Assembly (NCBI RefSeq): GCF_009914755.1
Contig: NC_060927.1
Reading direction: 5' to 3' (one strand)
Origin: the human T2T-CHM13v2.0 reference genome, Homo sapiens
DNA: 64,000 bases
Each line of letters starts with the position of its first letter. Positions within the stretch are counted from its first letter, which is position 1. This document shows positions 11,525 to 20,590 of this stretch, in pieces. The notes under the pieces are model-generated. The model was not told the DNA's origin. It saw only the letters and a program-made list of their open reading frames with translations, and did no database searches. Position numbers and translations under genes: made by a program.

Positions 11525-12538
11525 TTTTAACTTCTTATTTTAAAATAATAGAGTGACAGGAGTTGCAAAAACAGTACAGAGATTCTGCCTATGCTTCGCC
11601 CAGTTTTCCCCTATGGTTATATTTTTATATAACTATAGTATATAATCTCTACCAGGAAATTGACATTGGTACAACGTGTGTGCCTAGACCTGTGTCATTT
11701 AATTGCATGTGTAGATTCCTCAACACTGCTTCCACTGCAATTAAGATACAGATCTATTTAGGGGAATAGAAGATTAAGGTCTTCTATTCTCTTTTATAAT
11801 CATATTCAAATCCTGCCTACTGCCATCCCCTAACCCCTGGCTACCACCAGGCTCTTTTCCATCACTATAATTTTGTCATTTTGAGAATGTTATATAACCT
11901 GAACCTCAAAGTATGCAGCCTTTTGAGACTGGCTTTTTAATTCCAGCATAATACTTTTGGGACACATCCAAATTTGTTGTATTAATAGTTTACTGTTTTT
12001 TGTTGCTGATAGTGGTGTATGGTATGGATGTACCACATTTTGTTTAACCATTTAGCTATTGAGCAACATGCTGTCAGTTTTTGGCTATTGAAAATGAAGC
12101 TGTTACTAATATTTGTTACAGGTTTTTATATGGGCATACGGTTTATTTTTTCTGGATACATGTCCAGAAGTACAATTACTGGGTCCTCTAGTAAGTGTAT
12201 GCTTAGTTTTTTAAGAAACTGTCAAACTATTTTCCAGAGCAGCTGTACCATTTGGCATTCTGCCAGCAATGTATAACAGATCCACTTTCTCTGCATCCTT
12301 GCCAGCATTTTCTATTGTAAATATTTTTTATTTTACCTGTTGTAATAGAAATTTTTAACAGAATAGATCATCATTTCTTATTATGGTCTTTATGTACATT
12401 TCCCTAATGAATAGTGAAGTTGAACATCTTTTTATGTGCTTATTTGCCATCTGTATATCCTCTTTGCTAAAATGTCTCTTCATGTCCTTTGCCCATGTTC
12501 TAACGGATTTCTTCATTTTTACTGTTGAGTTTTGGGAC
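11525..12538 (-). mobile_element. Old L1 (L1MC-like) 3' end, split by the provirus
   Basis: ORF 12355..12600 contains [34 protein letters not shown] (L1 ORF2 C-terminus). The sequence resumes at 20068. Confidence 0.88.
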
Positions 12539-13012
12539 TGTTTCAACTTCCCTAATCTGCACCCGGAGTCACCCCAAAGGGGCAGCAGAAGAGTTTCCAC
12601 AAAGGAGTGCCCAAGCCTTCCAGAGATGAAGCTGGTTGAGATTCCAAAAAAGGAAGCACTGAATGCTGGGGTGATAAGTCCAAAGCATTTATTAAGGGAA
12701 CTTACAGCATGCTGCAGAAGTCCTCACTACTGACAGCAAGAGAAAAAGGGTGTTCTATCTGAGATGTCCACAGTGAGGAGTTCAGGGTATGGACTTTATA
12801 TGAGGGTTTAAAGAATTTGGCTTGGGACCACATTAATTTCTTTCAGTGATTTGAGCAACAACCTAGATACCTTTATTAGTACCTGAAAATGTTCAAGGCT
12901 CCAGTTTGCATTCAAGCCAGCTAGGAAAAACCTGCAGCTCTCTGGGTCACAGAGCTGTCAATGCACTCTGTGATCTTTGGTCAGGACATGGGAAGAAATT
13001 TGGGGGACTACA
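12539..13012 (-). repeat. 3' LTR of the provirus
   Basis: Aligns by eye along its length with 19593-20067 (shared cagcaagagaaaa, ttgagcaacaac, aatgttcaaggc, ggtcacagagc). Confidence 0.9.
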
Positions 13013-13124
13013 ATTTACACCCCTGACTGGCTCTTATTATTTCACACACCCATCTCTTCTGAGATGTTCCCTGAGCTGGCAGGAAAGGGTGGAATTGCTT
13101 GTCAGGTCCTTTTCCCTAACTTTA

Positions 13125-14350
13125 TGACACATTGCCAACAAAACAGCAACAGTAAATACAGGTGCATGTGACGAGACCTAAAATCACAGTTCCCAAAAGG
13201 CTTACTAGCAGTGCTTTTCACTGAGGCTCCAATTCTGAAAACTATGATTTTATTGTAGACCACCAAGAGTCAAACCCCTGTGGTCAATTAGCTGTAATTG
13301 CTTTTAAAAATGAAGAGGGATTGATTAATATCAGTTTCTTTGTCTGGCATATATACACAATGCTCAGTTTTAAAAAGGGCACAGATTCCTCCCTGCTCAG
13401 CTGTCAGCATTTCTAGAGCTATTCAGTTCTGTAGGACACTTTCCTCATTGTGGCTGTTTCAATGTTGAAGGACTCCAAACCATGCTCAGTGTCATTCAGA
13501 GCTCTGGAGACACATCTGAAGGGCTTCCACCTTCTGCACAATATCAACAGAGCTTTCCAGGGGTACAAATACTGTCAATCAGTCATCCCACCAAAAAACA
13601 AACAAACAAACAAACAAAAACAGACCCACTTCACCAACCCCTACAGATGGGCTCAGTGAGGGGGACAGGGATAGGGTCAGAGATCCTGCAGGGTACCTAC
13701 ATGAAGCCAAGGGCATATCATCCAAGCCATCTTAGGAGAACCCAGGGTCAGAGGTGAGTACTACTGAGCTACTGGTCACCAATCAAGGCAGTCCAATATG
13801 TTGCTGCCCTACAAAACCAGTCTGTGGCAAACCAGTCTGTGTCCCTAAGTATAACAATGTGTTTTCATCCAGCAGTTGGGAGGAGCCCTAGTATCTGGTA
13901 TTGTTTACCTGAGTGTCCTTGGAGTGATTACTTTGTTCCTGACAGATCTCTGTAACCCCAGAGAGCATCCCTGCTGTAGGGGTGAGCCACACAAAGCCAT
14001 CCCCCATTTGCCAGTACGATCCCTATTGCAGGGATGTGGTGCTCTTCAGGGAAGTCCTGGCTTTGGTTGTTGCCTCCCTGTGGGACATGTTCAGGGAAGA
14101 AGTTACATTGTGTTCAGGGTTGCTGGATGTCGCATCCCTATCGTATTTGCATGCATGTCAGAGGTATCTAGAGTACCCATTTCCATGTGTTGTTCAGTTA
14201 CATGGGTTTGTACATAGTGGCTCAGTCTACCAGAGCATTCCTCCTTAGCTACTCAGGGGCATAAGGCCGTGTATCTGCCAATTAGATCAGCCTTGGCTAT
14301 GGGCTGTGTGATGGGTCCAGGCCAGGAAAACATTTTCAGAGGATATCCGA
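13125..14350 (-). pseudogene. Degenerate retroviral env (SU+TM)
   Basis: Hand translation of the minus strand: ENVFLAWTHHTAHSQG*SNWQIHGLMPLSS (SU N-terminus), DTDWFATDW, ALNDTEHGLESFNIETATMRK/VLQN*IALEMLTAEQGGICALFKTEHCVYMPD (ISD and CX6CC-like motif), ALLVSLLGTVILGLVTCTCIYCCCF (TM). Confidence 0.85.
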
Positions 14351-14439
14351 GCTCTGGAGGGGATGATATAACCGCAAAGAAGAAGGCAGCTCAAGCAAAC
14401 AGCAAAAAGACAAAAAAAAAAAAAAGAAGATTAGGAATA

Positions 14440-17400
14440 CAGGCTAGGACCTCCTGCCCTAACTGTGTAATAAAACTTGTACTAGAATCCCCCTCTGCAA
14501 TAATCTCAGAAGCCTTGGGAACATTTCCAGGAGGGATATACAGACCTTCTGTCCCAGTGCGAGAGGTGTTGTAGACTCCACAGTGATAGTCTGGGTGAAA
14601 TCTACTGTACTAGTGCCACTTTGGTGCCCAGCGGTATGGGGGCACTGCCTGCCCACTGTCAGTGTGTCTCCCCAGGCCCTTCATGGAAAAGGAAAGTGGG
14701 GGTCAAGTCCAGGGCAGTGGCGGCCTCCCACCTCATGGGAAGAAGGATTACTAGTCCAGTGCAGTGGTACTTTCTACCCCAGATCTCACTTCAGGATTCC
14801 CTGCCCAGGGGTTATGGGACAAGGAGAGCACAAAATCAGTCCAGTCCATGTGGGACTGAATTCCAGGCTTAGTTTTTTTCCATACCCCTGTGGCTTGCAC
14901 CTGGCTGTATATATCCATTACATGTTCATAAGCCAACTTTCCTCCCATAATGGGAGCTTCATTCAAGGCACATATGACTTCCATTTAAACCACAGTCCAA
15001 TTTCTCAATGAGGGGAGTCCTGTCAAGAGCTTAATTTGTTCTTTGAAGAGGTCATTTTTTCCTCTGTAACAGTCCTGCTTCCTGTGGGCTGTAGGGCAGA
15101 TGAAATCGTCATGTCATGCCCTCCTTCTCTGCCCAATCTTGGATGAGGGAGCCTGGGAAATGGTTCCCTTGGTCACTGATGATTGTTTTTAGGGTACTAG
15201 ACATTAGTTGCAAGCATTGCAGACTCTATATAGTCAAGGTCTGATTTGCTTTTCAGTGGAGGAAAGCTTGCAAAGGGCCACTCAGTGTTTATGCATGTCA
15301 ATGTATATTGGTATCCCTTACCATTTAGGGAATGGGCCAATAGAATCTAGTTGCCATGTGTCAATGGCTCTCTCCCTTCTTTTTACATTTCCAGTGGTGG
15401 CCTCTGGTGCTTGCTGAGGAGGGGTCTGGCAACAGTTGGGCCAATTTTGTATTGTCTTTTCTCTGTCTTGTTTGGACACTAGTAAGCCAGAGTGCTTGGC
15501 CAATTTCCAAATAGTATGCAGAACCCCTGTGAGCTCCCTTCTGATGTATTCAATATGCTATACCTGCTTCTTCAGGTGACCACTGACCAGGTTTGGGACA
15601 GAGTTTCTGCTTTCATATTTCTACAAGGGGTGACTGTTGGTGAGCTACTATGTAGAACACTGTGACTTTAGCCTTGGTTGTTGTAATCGGTCCTAAATGT
15701 CTGTTCATAGTTCTGCCCCCAAAGTGGCCTTCCATTTATGGACCATTGATCCTTTTCCTATAGAGTTATCCACAGTGTCAACCCTTTCACAGATGCTCAG
15801 GAATCAGTACACAGAGCTACTGGGTGTGGCTCTTTCATAATCACTATCCAGACAGCTCAGGGCTCTGCCCACTGGCTGCTATACCCTGTTCCAGACTGCA
15901 CCCATATGGTGTGGATAGTTGGTTGCGTAGCCACGGAAGTCCATCTGTGTCGCTGACCCACATTGGAGTCATCTGTGTACCAAGCACCCTTGGGTGGGTT
16001 TTTTTCTCCTTCCTTTATTTGGTAAGATTTCTCTGGGGGTGGTGTTGGGACTGATTTTAAATCTATAGTTTATTGTCTAGGTCCCATCAGGGCCTATAGT
16101 TTTATAGACAGAGGGCTGGATGTAAGATGCCTGCTCTGCTGGAGATCTGTATGACCCCTAACCAGAGTACCATTTTGTGCTACAGCTGATGTGGACATGG
16201 CAAATAGGCCAGCCACTCAACGCTTAATAGGGTAAGCTGTTTTTAATTCCACCGATGTATCTCCAGTTAGTGACACTGTTTGCAAGATGGCCTGGTTAAC
16301 TGCAAGGAACTATTTTTCCAACAGGAGATAGCATTGTTCAGGCCCGCTGAACAATCGCGAGCAGAAGCTAAAGGGCATTTGCTGGTTGCTCTCCCTCTGC
16401 CAGAGGGCCCAACCTATTCCTTCCTCAGTCACAGAAATATCTAATTCAAATGTTTTTGCAGGGGTGAACATTTGTAGGGCTTGTGGTTACATCACTAAGG
16501 CCTTTGCCTGAGTAAACACTTCTTCTTTTTTAATGCTCCAGTCCCAATGTACCCCCATCTTTATCAGGCAGTATAAAGGCCTGAGACATTCGGCCAAGGG
16601 GAAATGAAGGTCCTTCAATATCCTAGCAGACAAAGGGTTGTAGTTCTTTAACTGTTTGGGGCCATGGGTATACCTGAATCTACTCAATCGCAGCTGTTAG
16701 CAAACCTAAGTCTTACTCAACAAACCATGCGCAGGAATTTTATGATGCCCCTGGCCTCTGGACTTTCTGTGGGTTGATGGCCCATCCTCTGGACCACAGG
16801 TGCTCTAGAAGCTTTTGGGTAGCCTGTGCAAAATATTTAAATCTGTATAAATTAGCAAAATCTTTATGTAATGTTCCTGGTGAATGCTGAGCATATCACC
16901 TATTATGATTTGGATATGGTTTGTTTGGCCCTGCAAAGTCCGTGTTGAAATTGTATCCCTCATTTTGGAGTGGAGCCTGGTGGGAGGTGTTTGGATCGTG
17001 GCGGGGGATACTTTGTGAATGACTTGGTACCATTCTTGGGGGGGTGCATAACTTCTTGTAGTTCACATGAGAACTGGTAATTGAGAAGAGCATGGCACTT
17101 TCCCTCTCCTCTCTCTTCCTTCCTCTCTTGCCATGTGATGTCTGCCCCCCTTCACCTTCTGTCATGAGTGGAAGCAGCCTGAAGCCCTTACCAGAAGCAG
17201 ATGATGGCGCCATAATTCTTGTACAACCTGCAGAACCATGAGCCAAATAAACCTCTTTTCTTTATAAATTACCCACCCTCAGATATTCCCTTTATGGCAA
17301 CACAAATGGACTAAGATATCACCCAAAACCTCCAGGTCACCAGCCATCAAACCAGGCACAGTAAGGCAATAAAAGCACCCCAGGAGAGCACTTTAAAAAT

Positions 17401-17810
17401 TCATTGTTGGCCCTCCTAGATGAAGGCAGGCATGTCCTGGGACTTTGGATCTAAAGGTGTGCTAAAGAAAGTGTTTGCTAAATCCAGGACAGTACACATA
17501 TACCTAAACAAGGAGTCAGCCTGTCCACTATATGAGCCACATTTGATACAGCAGCATGTAGAGATGGAGTCCCCTTATGCATTCCCAGTAATCAGCTGTC
17601 ATCCTCCAGGTGCCATCAGGATTTCACACCAGCCATATAGGGCTGTTGTATGGGCTCTGTGCTGGATGCACAATCTCCACCCTCTCCAGTTTCTGAATAG
17701 TCACTATTATCTCTCTGTGCCTTCCTGGGAGATGACAGTGTTTGATACATACCACCTGTCTTGGGCAGAATAATACCACCAGCTCCCATCTAGCCTCCTT
17801 TTGGAGCATG
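14440..17810 (-). pseudogene. Degenerate ERV pol (RT, RNase H, integrase), interrupted by an MST LTR
   Basis: SPYNSPIWLV (17624..17809), LDLANTFFS, LCTDS*ASVKGLTLW (RNase H), TWQLDSIGPFP and DQGNHF (integrase core). Confidence 0.87.
16901..17318 (+). mobile_element. MSTB-like MaLR solo LTR inserted in the ERV RT
   Basis: Starts tattatgatttggatatggtttgtttgg and ends ggactaagata; 5-bp TSD TCACC on both sides. Confidence 0.9.
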
Positions 17811-17849
17811 ACTCTTAGTATCCTTACCTAGAGATGGAATTAACCTTTA

Positions 17850-18130
17850 GTTGTTTCAAGGGCGGCTCCTAGGAGAGTATCTATCCTCACAATGTTCTCA
17901 GGGGTTGGGGAGATACAGAACCACCATGGGGTTGGTGTAAGATGCCTAATTTGTAACAGTAGATGTGCTCATCTCACAGAGATGCATGTATCTCTGTATC
18001 CATCTCTATACATTAGGAGCAGTGCATTCAGCTCCTGTATCTGCCAGAACTGAAATTCTTTGTTTTAAGGGGACCAGTGAATCACTATTTCTATGTGGGG
18101 CCTTTGGTCCCCCTAAACGGCTCTATGTTG
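17850..18130 (-). pseudogene. ERV aspartic protease remnant
   Basis: RISVLADTGAECTAP read from the reverse complement of 18011-18060. Confidence 0.8.
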
Positions 18131-18149
18131 AGAAGAACTTTGGCCGTCC

Positions 18150-19530
18150 TGTCACGGTAGGGGCTGTGGTGCTCACTACCCTTTTACCTTGGATTCTTCT
18201 TCCAGAGGTAGTGCTGAGGGTTTAGGATTAATCTTAGGCACACTGCTGCTTGGGCTTTAGGACTTGTCAAAGTCTAAGGAAAACTGCATTGAGTTGTTTG
18301 TCTATTTTCTCTCTCTCCATACCTGTCTTCAGAAGGTCTTGCCATATTTTACTCCTTGACATCCATTTTGCTGTATCTCTATCTTTTCCCTTTCCTTGTC
18401 TCCTTAAGTTCCCCCCATCATTACAGCACTCCTCACTTAAGCTGCACTGCCGTAGTTTCGAATTCCCTTATTTCAACCAGAGCTCCTGCTAAGGGACTTA
18501 AGATGGGAAGAAGTGTTTGCTACCACCCAGGCAGAGCGGCCTTTAGGAACATATTGCACATACTGGCCATGAATGTGGCATTATTATGCCCCTGGAAAGC
18601 AGGGGCATAGATGGCTACCTGCATTGCCAACTCGTGAAACAAAGCCTGTGTCTCCTCAGTTGTCTTCCAAGGTGCTGGATCCCCAGGTGTATACCCCTTG
18701 GATGGCCAGGCTTCCCTACAGGTTAGGGTGTGTCCGTCTATCCCAGGAATAGCAGAGGAGCCATGTAGGCATTGCCCAATAGAAGGATGAGCTGTAACAC
18801 TGATAATCTTGATGGCATCATTTCCAGACAGAACCACCCCATCGGTGCCACTATCCCATAATCTTCCCATCCAAGTGGCTAAGAACTCCTTCGGGTTCTG
18901 CCAAAAGTGGCTAGCCAGATCCATTAACTCTATAGGAGTATATTCGCTCAGGGGGTATGTTTGATTGGCAAGTAGTGGAGGGCCTCAGGCTCCTGCCTGG
19001 TGGGCTTACTTTAATTTACTTTGTGTGATGGAGTGAGTCCTCAGACATTCCCCTCCATTATCTGGATCTGTCAGACACTTTCACTGTCTAAGGGTTACCA
19101 TTTTTTGGCATCCCAACTGGGGGACTGGATAATGGCAGGGCTTTAGGTATTTTCTCACCACATCACTTGGCATAGCAGCATGCCATTGTGTTCATCCTCC
19201 CCTTCTTCCACTTTATCCAGCCTGTTGGGAACTGACAGAGTGGAGCGTACATCCCTTTCCAGTTGTAATTTCTCCTCTAACTTGCCCACCTTCCTTTCTG
19301 CTGCCAGTGAAGCCTCTGTTGCTAGGTGGATGGCCACAACAGAAGTCAGACTTTCCCAGTTGCTAGGAACCTGGCCTCCTTGCTGGCCATTTGCAATTTT
19401 AAACCCTCCATAAGGCTAATCAAGCAAGCTGGAATTTTTGGAGCACCTTGGTATTCCTAGGGAGGCCTGCAAGTATGGAGCAAGCTGGCCACAGAAGCCT
19501 CACATAGAACCTTGCACCATTACAGGACGT
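18150..19530 (-). pseudogene. ERVL-type gag remnant
   Basis: ORF 18520..18924 (FWQNPKEFLATWMGRLWDSG) resembles the ERV-L gag capsid motif; ORF 19155..19337 is coiled-coil-like. Confidence 0.75.
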
Positions 19531-19569
19531 CCCCGGTCAGTTCCTCTTTGCCCCAGCCCATTTCTTTGG

Positions 19570-19591
19570 GGTCCTGTTGACCAAATGTCAA
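19570..19591 (-). other. Degenerate primer-binding site, tRNA-Ser-like
   Basis: The minus strand reads TGACATTTGGTCAACAGGAC just after the 5' LTR, resembling TGGCGTAGTCGGCAGGAT with several transitions and a small indel. Confidence 0.45.
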
Positions 19592-19592
19592 T

Positions 19593-20067
19593 TGTTTCAT
19601 CCTGCCTAACTGCTTTTGGGACTCTCCCCAAAAGCAGAAGCAGGGGAATTTCCACAAGAGAGTGCCCCAAACTGTGCTGAGATCGGGCTAGTTGGGATTC
19701 CAACAAAGAAACACTAAATGCCAAAGTGATCAGTCCAAAACATTCACTAGGGGAACTTAGAGTGCTGCAGTGGTCCTCATGATGAACAGCAAGAGAAAAG
19801 GGGTGTTCTACCTAGGATGTTTGCAGCCAGGGCTTGGGGTATGTACTTTATGTGAAAGTTTAAGGAATTTGGCCCAGGGCTGAGACCACTTTCTTTCAGT
19901 GCTTTGAGCAACAACATAGATATCTTTATCAGTGCCTGGGAATGTTCAAGGCCCTGGTTTTCCCCCTGGGAAAAAATCTGAAGCTGGCTGGTCACAGAGC
20001 AGTAAAGGCACTTCATGATTTTTGACCAGGACACAGAATAAAGGTGGGAGGAACTGGAGACTCTGCA
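19593..20067 (-). repeat. 5' LTR of the provirus
   Basis: Homologous to 12539-13012; TG...CA termini. Confidence 0.9.
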
Positions 20068-20590
20068 GACTTCTTTATGTATTCCAGATAATAAGAGTGC
20101 TTTACCAGATACATGGATTGCGAATATTTTCTCCCAGTCTATAGCTTGTCTTTTCATCCCCTTAATAGGGTCTTTGGCAGAGCAAACATTTTAAATTTTG
20201 ATTAAATTCAATTTATTGATTTTTTTTTTCTTTTATGAAATGTGCTTTTGTTGTGGAGCCTAAGAATGCTTCACAGAAATGTAGGTCCTAAAGATTTTCC
20301 CTTATGTTTTCCTTTAAATGTGGAAAAGCGTTACAGTTTTAAGCTTTACATTTAGGTCACCTGTCCATTTTGAAATAACTTTTCTGTAAGGTGTGAGTTT
20401 TAGTTTGAATTCATTTTTTTATCTGTAAATAAGTACTTGCTCCAGTAACAATTGTTGAAAAGATGATTTTTTCCTCCACAGAACAGATTTTGGACCTTTG
20501 TGAAAAATCAATTGGCTATACTTTCGTGGGTCTATTTCTGGGTTTTATTTTTATAATTCCGTTAATTTCTGTACCTACATTTACAGGTAC
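20068..20590 (-). mobile_element. Continuation of the L1 split by the provirus
   Basis: ORF 19777..20157 begins MKRQAIDWEKIFAIHVSGK (L1 ORF2), colinear with the 12538 junction. Confidence 0.85.

What the first reader, a model, noticed from the sequence alone, without database searches (positions are those of the whole stretch)
13125..14350. Class III (ERVL-like) provirus retaining a gamma-type env remnant
Seen: between integrase and the 3' LTR the minus strand encodes, with frameshifts, a series of env motifs. These are an SU motif (NVFLAW...SNW.....MPLSS), DWFATDW, a WLG*YALG motif, a fusion-peptide-like FWWDD*LTVFVP, a heptad ALNDTEHG...MRK, an immunosuppressive domain VLQN*IALEMLTAEQGGIC, a CX6CC-like C-ALFKTE-HC and a TM with a Cys-rich tail. 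The ISD stop TGA is a plausible CpG-decayed CGA (Arg). None of this appears in the supplied ORF track. Known: ERV-L and MaLR generally lack env, while HERV-S-related class III lineages carry a gamma-type env. Inference: this is an ancient env-bearing class III lineage whose env may be poorly annotated, possibly a pol/env recombinant.
Basis: partly seen in the sequence, partly recalled or inferred. Interest (0 to 1): 0.8.

Follow-up and report, generated by a model that had tools for sequence, protein, structure and literature searches.

The report
Decayed class III provirus with gamma-type env
This is the dead remnant of a very old human endogenous retrovirus whose polymerase genes are foamy-virus-like but whose envelope gene is of the murine-leukaemia-virus type, a combination already described for a few related human families, so it is real but ordinary.

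Summary
Window 12549-20067 (minus strand) is a roughly 7.5 kb provirus with two LTRs (K2P 0.354). Between integrase and the 3' LTR lies a heavily broken env.

- **Env:** the immunosuppressive-domain stretch hits Pfam TLV_coat (E 0.0011, below the cut-off). Nine of 12 PDB hits are gamma-type TM subunits.
- **Pol:** it is foamy-like, not MLV-like. The best RT hits are foamy PR-RT and the best eight integrase hits are PFV integrase. No dUTPase was found.
- **Relatives:** the provirus is collinear at protein level, from gag to TM, with verified HERVS, HERVL32 and HERVL66 loci. The literature already describes these as class III elements with a class I env and no dUTPase.
- **Family:** three paralogous copies carry the same env in the same place, so env belongs to the family and is not a local mosaic.
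- **Distinctness:** by DNA the family differs from HERVS, HERVL32 and HERVL66. Its repeat-library name could not be checked.

Some reader details fail. The "fusion peptide" is partly a copy-specific (GTTT)n microsatellite. This copy's CX6CC is degenerate. No SU CXXC motif survives. Novelty is low: another member of a known kind.

The parts
12549..13019 (-). 3' LTR (starts TG, ends GA where the 5' LTR has CA)
   Evidence: blastn against the 5' LTR gives 73.8% over 455 columns. The MAFFT pair gives p 0.274 and K2P 0.354 over 482 columns. Ends were read.
13125..14367 (-). env remnant (SU plus TM), broken by many stops and frame changes
   Evidence: The same region is present in 3 paralogs at 71-77% DNA identity.
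13125..13217 (-). TM membrane anchor and Cys-rich cytoplasmic tail (KALLVSLLGTVILGLVTCTCIYCCCF...)
   Evidence: Frame 2 translation. Short tblastx pieces at 13143-13187 match HERVL32 and a HERVS-like locus.
13339..13443 (-). TM immunosuppressive domain and degenerate CX6CC (VLQNxIALEMLTAEQGGICALFKTEHCV), with one in-frame stop
   Evidence: TLV_coat E 0.0011. PDB gamma-type TM hits. Paralog comparison. 149 TM-like matches genome-wide.
13440..13511 (-). Candidate heptad-repeat stretch just upstream of the ISD, in another frame
   Evidence: Frame 2 translation. Position relative to the ISD only; not separately supported by any search.
13593..13622 (-). Copy-specific (GTTT)n microsatellite inside env; source of part of the 'fusion-peptide-like' string
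   Evidence: Absent from all 3 paralogs, which show 16-20 base gaps there. It attracts 14 spurious short genome hits.
14230..14367 (-). N-terminal SU piece (ENVFLAWTHHTAHSQG...MPLSS)
   Evidence: tblastx gives 33% over 46 aa against the env of the verified HERVL32 locus L024.
14916..16015 (-). Integrase (core with SDQGNHF...PYSPQEAG)
   Evidence: The top 8 PDB hits are PFV integrase, E 1.3e-6 to 2.6e-5. tblastx matches HERVS, HERVL32 and HERVL66.
16079..16811 (-). RT connection and RNase H
   Evidence: Pfam RT_RNaseH_2 E 1.6e-10, RT_RNaseH 2.3e-5, RNase_H 2.2e-4. tblastx.
16900..17400 (-). Secondary insertion of a high-copy solo LTR (MaLR/THE1-MST-like by recall) that splits RT
   Evidence: Query part 682-1101 (window 16900-17319) drew 6394 candidates at 75-78% identity. 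Alignments to the paralogs break at about 17400 and about 16900.
17377..18112 (-). Reverse transcriptase, N-terminal part (…SPYNSPIWLVxNPDGTWRMTADYWE…)
   Evidence: The best PDB hits are foamy-type PR-RT 7kse/7ksf, E 9.5e-6. tblastx. This is the only stretch that aligns by DNA with HERVS and HERVL32.
18243..18383 (-). Protease remnant
   Evidence: tblastx against HERVS and the HERVS-like locus gives 43-45% over 23-47 aa.
18520..18984 (-). gag remnant (154-aa open stretch)
   Evidence: ORF list. tblastx gives 33-37% over 51-81 aa against HERVS, the HERVS-like locus and HERVL32. No Pfam hit.
19603..20067 (-). 5' LTR (TG...CA)
20068..20071 (-). Candidate target-site duplication AGTC, paired with AGTT at 12545-12548. 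An exact 5-base GAAGT is the alternative reading.
   Evidence: Read. Ambiguous.

Best explanation
Window 12549-20067 (minus strand) is a dead provirus, probably more than 80 million years old. It belongs to a low-copy family of the dUTPase-less 'ERVS' branch of class III (ERV3) endogenous retroviruses.

Like its relatives HERVS (HERV18), HERVL32 and HERVL66, the family carried gag-pro-pol of the ERV3 type together with an env of the gamma (class I, TLV_coat) type.

Inferred from the family, not shown here: when alive, env would have worked like other gamma-type envelopes. SU bound a receptor. TM drove membrane fusion through a heptad-repeat coiled coil. The ISD lay next to a CX6CC loop that links to SU.

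Today the env of this copy is non-coding debris. It has many stops and frame changes, a microsatellite expansion, and a degenerate CX6CC. Nothing suggests that the host uses it.
For: **Provirus anatomy**
- Paired LTRs are 73.8% alike, with K2P 0.354.

**Env**
- TLV_coat hits the ISD.
- Nine of 12 PDB hits are gamma-type TM/Env chains.
- The family TM motif reads LQNQMALEMLT.VQGG.CAL.K(T/S)E(C/H)C. The CX6CC is intact in 2 of 4 copies.
- TM open frames of verified relatives pass the TLV_coat cut-off: HERVL66 35.6 and 29.3 bits, HERVS 34.0, HERVS-like 22.9. In all, 5 of 7 relatives hit and 4 are above the cut-off.

**Pol**
- The best RT hits are foamy-type PR-RT (E 9.5e-6). MLV-type RT reaches only E 0.22-0.25.
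- The top 8 integrase hits are PFV integrase (1.3e-6 to 2.6e-5). The next best, HIV and HTLV, are at 0.0097 or weaker.
- No dUTPase appears in any frame at E<=1.

**Relatives**
- tblastx is collinear from gag to TM with HERVS (summed E 5e-105), a HERVS-like locus (2e-116), HERVL32 (2e-57 and 2e-48) and HERVL66 (4e-36).
- The loci were verified by their published ISD strings.
- Genome-wide, 15 other loci carry both a pol match and a TM match 1.6-3.7 kb downstream on the same strand.

**Env belongs to the family**
- Single blastn alignments run from pol through env into the 3' LTR in the chr2 copy (3647 columns) and the chr6:27.95 Mb copy (2319 columns).

**Literature**
- Vargiu 2016 (passages and supplements).
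- Kojima 2018 (passages).
Against: - The Pfam hit for this copy is below the gathering score (18.3 against 22.5). The paralog L029 scores only 15.0. The TM frames of L028 and of HERVL32 L024 gave no TLV_coat hit.
- One of the three pol frames (P0006) gave no PDB hit at all.
- Pfam found no RVT_1, rve or gag model in any frame.
- No gammaretroviral integrase appeared among the 60 PDB hits listed (of 82). The integrase result therefore separates foamy from lenti, delta and other genera, not from gamma.
- No tree was built, so 'ERVS branch' rests on best-hit ranking, collinearity and absence of dUTPase.
- SU is supported outside the family by only one 46-aa tblastx piece.
- The target-site duplication is ambiguous between 4 and 5 bases.
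- The rate behind the age estimate (2.2e-9 per site per year) is recalled.
Confidence: 0.85

Rival explanations
1. The element is simply a copy of one of the three named env-bearing class III families (HERVS/HERV18-LTR18, HERVL32-LTR32 or HERVL66-LTR66).
For: It has the same gene order and the same type of ISD.
Against: Sensitive blastn aligns only 79-186 bases of RT with HERVS and HERVL32, and nothing with HERVL66. It aligns no LTR sequence with any of them. The four paralogs align along the whole element at 67-77%. In the RNase H segment the verified HERVS locus is 35% identical at protein level and a match near the HERVL32 chr5 locus 37%.
Confidence: 0.05
2. The env is not part of the provirus. 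It is a fragment of an unrelated class I provirus that landed in, or recombined with, this one class III copy, making a locus-specific mosaic.
For: Vargiu 2016 report that mosaics from secondary integration are common. This very copy carries one secondary LTR insertion in RT.
Against: The same env, in the same place and orientation, is contiguous with integrase and the 3' LTR in 3 other loci. All 19 first-look candidates of the env DNA search were scored and none lay elsewhere.
Confidence: 0.03
3. It is a class I (gamma-like) provirus throughout, and the class III call for pol is a misreading.
For: The env is gamma-type. The closest TM matches outside the family (49-62% identity) sit in loci without class III pol.
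Against: RT ranks foamy-type PR-RT four orders of magnitude above MLV-type RT. The integrase core matches PFV integrase best. The best genome-wide pol matches are HERVS-type loci. Nine of 10 loci holding the closest outside TMs show no similarity to this pol.
Confidence: 0.04
4. The env-like motifs are chance strings in non-coding DNA.
For: Each single hit for this copy is weak (E about 1e-3). Part of one motif is a microsatellite artefact.
Against: All hits are concordant in kind and position. The TM stretch is conserved across 4 copies, and 2 keep CX6CC. The TM segment has 149 genome matches, including verified HERVS, HERVL32 and HERVL66 env.
Confidence: 0.01

Closest known systems
HERVS (HERV18 / HERVL18-int with LTR18)
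   Same: - Class III pol without dUTPase, with a class I-type env.
- Collinear from gag to TM. tblastx summed E is 5e-105 for the verified chr5 locus and 2e-116 for a HERVS-like chr1 locus.
- Similar ISD type: LQNRMALDIVTAAQGG.C.LLGT.CC.
   Different: - By DNA, only 186 bases of RT align at 68%, and no LTR sequence aligns.
- TM identity is 49% and RNase H segment identity 35-43%.
HERVL66 (LTR66) and HERVL32 (LTR32)
   Same: - Both are described as class III with class I-like env and no dUTPase (Vargiu 2016; Kojima 2018).
- TM identity to this copy is 59% (HERVL66) and 53% (HERVL32).
- HERVL32 also shares an SU piece and the Cys-rich tail.
   Different: - HERVL66 shows no DNA-level alignment. 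HERVL32 aligns over 79-111 bases only.
- The LTRs are unrelated by blastn.
HERV-L / ERV-L proper (MLT2 LTRs)
   Same: Class III (ERV3) pol type.
   Different: HERV-L encodes a dUTPase at the end of pol and has no recognised env (Vargiu 2016; Kojima 2018). Here no dUTPase was found and an env is present.
Class I gamma-type envelopes (PRIMA41, PABL/EnvP(b), syncytins, MLV p15E)
   Same: - ISD followed by the CX6CC loop, which are the features cited as consistent with a gamma-type env in PMC9604959.
- 49-62% identity over 35-46 aa to TMs at loci without class III pol.
- PDB hits to syncytin-1, syncytin-2 and MLV TM.
   Different: Those envelopes sit behind class I pol. Here pol is class III.
Foamy viruses (Spumaretrovirinae)
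   Same: They give the best solved-structure matches for both RT and integrase.
   Different: Kojima 2018 states that ERV3 and true foamy viruses are independent lineages. The env here is gamma-type and not a foamy env. That difference comes from recalled knowledge of foamy env.

Membership tests
Gamma-type retroviral Env (Pfam TLV_coat) | Immunosuppressive-domain sequence in TM recognised by the family profile | tested here: inconclusive
   TLV_coat E 0.0011, 18.3 bits, below the 22.5 cut-off. It is backed by 9 gamma-type TM chains among 12 PDB hits. Relatives also pass the cut-off.
Gamma-type retroviral Env (Pfam TLV_coat) | CX6CC motif directly after the ISD | tested here: not met
   This copy and the chr6:27.95 Mb copy read C-x6-HC. 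The chr6:52.57 Mb and chr2:51.09 Mb copies keep C-x6-CC. The feature is therefore met for the family and lost in this copy.
Gamma-type retroviral Env (Pfam TLV_coat) | CXXC motif in SU, the partner of CX6CC | tested here: not met
   The only C-x2-C strings lie in the leader-like poly-T region, in the cytoplasmic tail, or upstream in integrase. Decay may have removed the motif.
Gamma-type retroviral Env (Pfam TLV_coat) | Membrane anchor after the ectodomain | tested here: met
   A hydrophobic stretch with a Cys-rich tail lies at 13125-13217. Short tblastx matches to the HERVL32 and HERVS-like tails support it.
Gamma-type retroviral Env (Pfam TLV_coat) | Furin cleavage site and fusion peptide at the SU/TM junction | tested here: inconclusive
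No cleavage site was recognised.
Class III / ERV3 (pol-based) | RT closest to the foamy/ERV3 type rather than gamma or beta | tested here: met
   7kse and 7ksf score E 9.5e-6. MLV-type p80 RT scores 0.22-0.25. This is a ranking only; no tree was built.
Class III / ERV3 (pol-based) | Integrase closest to the foamy/ERV3 type | tested here: met
   The top 8 of 82 PDB sequences are PFV-type integrase, 1.3e-6 to 2.6e-5. The next best is 0.0097.
ERVS lineage of ERV3 (Kojima 2018) | No dUTPase domain in pol | tested here: met
   No dUTPase hit at E<=1 in any of three frames over 14300-19600. Decay could hide one, but the spacing from RNase H to the ISD (about 2.95 kb) equals that of HERVS (about 2.87 kb).
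ERVS lineage of ERV3 (Kojima 2018) | Closest pol relatives are HERVS-type elements with an ERV1-like env | tested here: met
ERV-L proper (HERV-L/MLT2) | dUTPase at the pol C-terminus and no env | tested here: not met
   No dUTPase. An env is present.
HERVS, HERVL32 or HERVL66 as named families | LTR and internal sequence alignable by DNA with members of the family | tested here: not met
   only 79-186 bases of RT align, and no LTR sequence aligns.
Named Dfam/Repbase family of this LTR | Match to a library consensus | not testable with these tools
   No repeat library was available. Look-ups in Vargiu 2016 Table S1 did not find this locus or the one paralog tried there by coordinates, chr6:52.57 Mb.

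The most novel reading that the evidence does not exclude
The provirus and its roughly 10 internal paralogs could be the so far uncharacterised internal sequence, env included, of one of the many orphan ERV3 LTR families that Kojima 2018 lists without an internal portion.

That would add a fourth, deeply diverged family to the dUTPase-less ERVS lineage. All four families would share one TM type (LQN.MAL..L.A.QGG.CAL..T.CC).

This would favour a single ancient presence of a gamma-type env at the base of the whole ERVS lineage, more than 80 million years ago, over repeated 'env snatching'. It would also bear on what the lost env of ERV-L-type viruses looked like.
Probability: 0.3. Interest if true: 0.4.

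Novelty: new member of a known kind. Interest (0 to 1): 0.2.

Why it matters
It matters little on its own. Class III proviruses with a class I (gamma-type) env and no dUTPase are already in print for HERVS, HERVL32 and HERVL66 (Vargiu 2016; Kojima 2018).

The modest value is that this low-copy family is distinct from those three by DNA. It has about 10 internal remnants, 4 of them with env, and at least 158 LTR candidates. It shows the same gene order and the same TM type as the named families.

It therefore adds one data point to an open question: was the gamma-type env acquired once at the root of the ERVS lineage, or several times? It may also flag an internal sequence that repeat libraries do not model. 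This copy shows no sign of coding capacity or host use.

Tried and rejected
- **Direct Pfam scan of the DNA reference.** It failed on stop codons. I repeated it with stops read as X.
- **Naming the family through Vargiu 2016 Table S1.**
  - Searching for this copy's ISD string found nothing.
  - Searching coordinate prefixes for the chr6:52.57 Mb paralog found no chr6 row.
  - The rows for HERVL66 and HERVL32 lie at other loci.
  - Supplement 6 does not hold these names.
  - Supplement 2 does not mention HERVL40, LTR52, LTR53, MER76, HERVL74 or MER68.
- **Naming through locus-style names.** A paper search for names ending in 3p26.1 found only HERVP71A_3p26.1 and MER31_3p26.1, which could not be tied to this site.
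- **MER70-int as the family.** I considered it because Vargiu list an AEQGGIC-type ISD for it. I rejected it for two reasons. The family's other copies read AVQGG or SVQGG followed by CAL..TECC, not the HERV1-like pattern. No chr3:14x Mb locus appeared among the 149 TM matches.
- **Pfam on the flanks.** It gave no L1 family, so the L1 reading rests on recall.
- **The third pol frame (P0006).** It gave no PDB hit.
- **Not attempted.** RT and TM trees, because labelled reference sequences were not at hand and the TM overlap is only about 40 aa. Structure prediction. Orthologue searches, because no other mammalian genomes are held.

Full report
**What is there**

On the minus strand, direct repeats about 7.05 kb apart resolve into two LTRs, at 12549-13019 and 19603-20067. 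blastn aligns them at 73.8% over 455 columns. A global alignment gives p = 0.274 and K2P = 0.354 over 482 columns. With a recalled neutral rate of 2.2e-9 per site per year, that is about 80 million years, and older at slower rates.

The 5' LTR runs TG...CA. The 3' LTR starts TG and ends GA. The flanks carry AGTC and AGTT, which is a 4-base duplication with one mismatch. An exact 5-base GAAGT is an alternative reading. By recall, the flanking sequence on both sides reads like the 3' part of an old L1 ORF2. Pfam did not confirm this.

**The env observation**

- The frame holding VLQNxIALEMLTAEQGGICALFKTEHCV hits Pfam TLV_coat at profile positions 455-488. The hit has E 0.0011 and 18.3 bits, below the 22.5 cut-off. 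The other two frames hit nothing.
- Against PDB sequences, the same frame returns 12 sequences at E<=10, and 9 of them are retroviral TM/Env chains:
  - 4jf3 (E 0.0016; by recall the MPMV TM);
  - syncytin-1 (5ha6, 6rx1, 8ouh);
  - syncytin-2 (1y4m, 6rx3);
  - an MLV-related env (4jgs);
  - MLV p15E (1mof);
  - the HERV-T env (7s94).
- The remaining three PDB hits are a GP2 ectodomain, a Fab chain and Ebony.
- The interval is debris. Its frames carry 31, 16 and 19 stops per 408 codons, and the longest open stretch is 61 aa.

**Reader details that do not hold**

- The 'fusion-peptide-like' FLFVCLFVFWW string is partly the translation of a (GTTT)n run at 13593-13622. All three paralogs lack this run, showing gaps of 16-20 bases there. 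The same run produced the 14 short spurious hits.
- This copy's 'CX6CC-like' motif reads C-x6-HC.
- No SU CXXC motif survives in a credible place.
- DWFATDW and WLG*YALG found no support outside the family.
- I did not work out the origin of the stop inside the ISD. I note only that the other three copies have a sense codon at that position.

**Env belongs to the family**

A DNA search of the whole assembly with 13125-14350 scored all 19 first-look candidates. Besides the window itself, it found three loci at 71-77% identity: chr6:27.95 Mb, chr6:52.57 Mb (in two pieces) and chr2:51.09 Mb.

In the chr2 copy, one blastn alignment of 3647 columns runs from RNase H through integrase and env into the 3' LTR. 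In the chr6:27.95 Mb copy, one alignment of 2319 columns runs from the end of integrase through env into the LTR. The chr6:52.57 Mb copy is full length with both LTRs.

The TM stretch reads as follows in the paralogs:

| Copy | TM stretch |
|---|---|
| chr6:27.95 Mb | QNQMALEMLTSVQGGTCALYKSEHCVY |
| chr6:52.57 Mb | QRGVALDMLTAVQGGICA followed by CALLKTECCVC |
| chr2:51.09 Mb | QSQMALAMVIAVQGRAFCFFV*TECCMY |

The canonical CX6CC is therefore kept in 2 of 4 copies.

Searches with the two pol halves, leaving out a secondary insertion, scored all candidates (10 and 15). They found internal remnants at about 10-12 loci. The LTR drew 158 candidates. Of these, 40 were scored, and all 40 matched; apart from the query itself these were 72-78% identical.

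**Pol is class III**

- Pfam sees only RT_RNaseH_2 (E 1.6e-10), RT_RNaseH (2.3e-5) and RNase_H (2.2e-4, below its cut-off). It sees no dUTPase, RVT_1, rve or gag model at E<=1.
- Against PDB, the RT frame is best matched by 7kse and 7ksf, named 'Peptidase A9/Reverse transcriptase/RNase H', at E 9.5e-6. By recall these are foamy virus PR-RT.
  - Next come three 'Pr125Pol' chains (0.021-0.039; simian foamy virus by recall) and Ty3.
  - MLV-type 'p80' RT scores only 0.22-0.25.
- The integrase-core frame returns 82 sequences at E<=1. The top eight score 1.3e-6 to 2.6e-5.
  - Four of them are named PFV integrase.
  - The other four are labelled only 'Integrase' and match the same part of the query.
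  - The next best hit scores 0.0097, and the hits from there on include HIV and HTLV integrase.
- The third frame gave no PDB hit.
- RT is split at about 16900-17400 by a high-copy solo LTR. That part drew 6394 candidates, and the paralog alignments break there. By recall it is of the MaLR THE1/MST type.

**Relation to named families**

Vargiu et al. 2016 (PMC4724089; I read passages and parts of supplements 1, 2 and 4) state that the class III groups HERVS, HERVL32 and HERVL66 carry class I envelopes and lack dUTPase. They also report one odd HERVL chain with a class I envelope. They call this 'env snatching'. Kojima 2018 (PMC5753468; passages) says the same. Kojima separates a dUTPase-bearing ERVL lineage from a dUTPase-less ERVS lineage.

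I located their HERVL66 chain 4649, HERVL32 chain 1946 and HERVS chain 2031 in this assembly through TM and pol protein searches. I then checked the loci by their ISD strings. The HERVL66 chain and the HERVL32 chain carry exactly the published strings. The HERVS chain carries a string close to the published HERVS consensus ISD.

tblastx of the provirus against these loci gives collinear matches through gag, protease, RT, RNase H, integrase and TM:

| Locus | Summed E |
|---|---|
| HERVS-like (chr1:167.6 Mb) | 2e-116 |
| HERVS | 5e-105 |
| HERVL32 (chr1 locus, L023) | 2e-57 |
| HERVL32 (chr5 locus, L024; includes a 46-aa SU piece and the Cys-rich tail) | 2e-48 |
| HERVL66 (chr1 locus, L022) | 4e-36 |

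- The TM open frames of these relatives hit TLV_coat in 5 of 7 cases, and 4 are above the cut-off.
- Across the genome, 15 other loci hold both a pol match and a TM match 1.6-3.7 kb downstream on the same strand.
- By DNA, however, only 79-186 bases of RT align with HERVS and HERVL32, nothing aligns with HERVL66, and no LTR aligns. This is a separate family.
- The closest TM matches outside the group (49-62% identity) lie in 10 loci. Nine show no similarity to this pol and one shows 59 bits. The ERVS-group loci show 219-656 bits. This agrees with the published view that these envelopes cluster with class I envelopes.

**How it worked and what it is now**

By inference from the family and from what defines gamma-type envelopes (ISD plus CX6CC and a covalent SU-TM link; PMC9604959 passages), the ancestral virus used an MLV-like fusion machine on a class III replication core. 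This copy is inert. No annotated gene or functional element overlaps it, according to the annotation supplied with the finding.

**What stays open**

The repeat-library name of the LTR and whether a library internal model covers env could not be checked. Kojima lists many ERV3 LTRs without a characterised internal portion, so the family may or may not be modelled.

**Verdict**

- The kind is already described, and the locus shows no sign of function.
- Interest is low.

Noticed in passing
window 16900-17400: A high-copy solo LTR is inserted in the RT of this copy only. By recall it is of the MaLR THE1/MST type. It drew 6394 first-look candidates at 75-78% identity. The chr6:52.57 Mb paralog carries its own matches to the same repeat at a different place.
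   Followed up: partly
window 12358-12548 and 20068-20190: Both flanks of the provirus read as one interrupted older repeat. By recall it is the 3' part of L1 ORF2 (…SGIHKE | …[20 protein letters not shown]…). Pfam gave no supporting hit.
   Followed up: partly
window 13339-13443 and L029:6703-6951: The window copy and the chr6:27.95 Mb copy share the same departure from CX6CC (HC in place of CC). The two other copies keep CC. This hints at a sub-lineage or a shared source copy.
   Followed up: no
G000:C3:16772663-16772782 (locus L035): A TM match of 53% identity lies inside a 452-aa open frame. By recall this is the EnvP(b)/ERVPABLB-1 locus. Only weak cross-class pol similarity lies upstream.
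   Followed up: partly
G000:C7:56.71 Mb, 64.27 Mb and 65.09 Mb: Three nearby chr7 loci match the same gag-RT part of the provirus with similar piece patterns. They may be segmental duplicates of one old copy.
   Followed up: no
G000:C6:126455942-126459440: At this locus the TM match lies about 3.2 kb upstream of the pol match on the same strand. This is the reverse of the order seen at the 15 other paired loci.
   Followed up: no
G000:C19:20.10-20.91 Mb: Six TM matches of 56-61% identity cluster within about 0.8 Mb of chr19 around the verified HERVL66 locus. This suggests locally duplicated HERVL66-type env remnants.
   Followed up: no
L027 (G000:C6:52567500-52577499): This paralog is full length with both LTRs. 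Its TM is split by about 1.9 kb of extra sequence between the ISD and the CX6CC pieces.
   Followed up: partly
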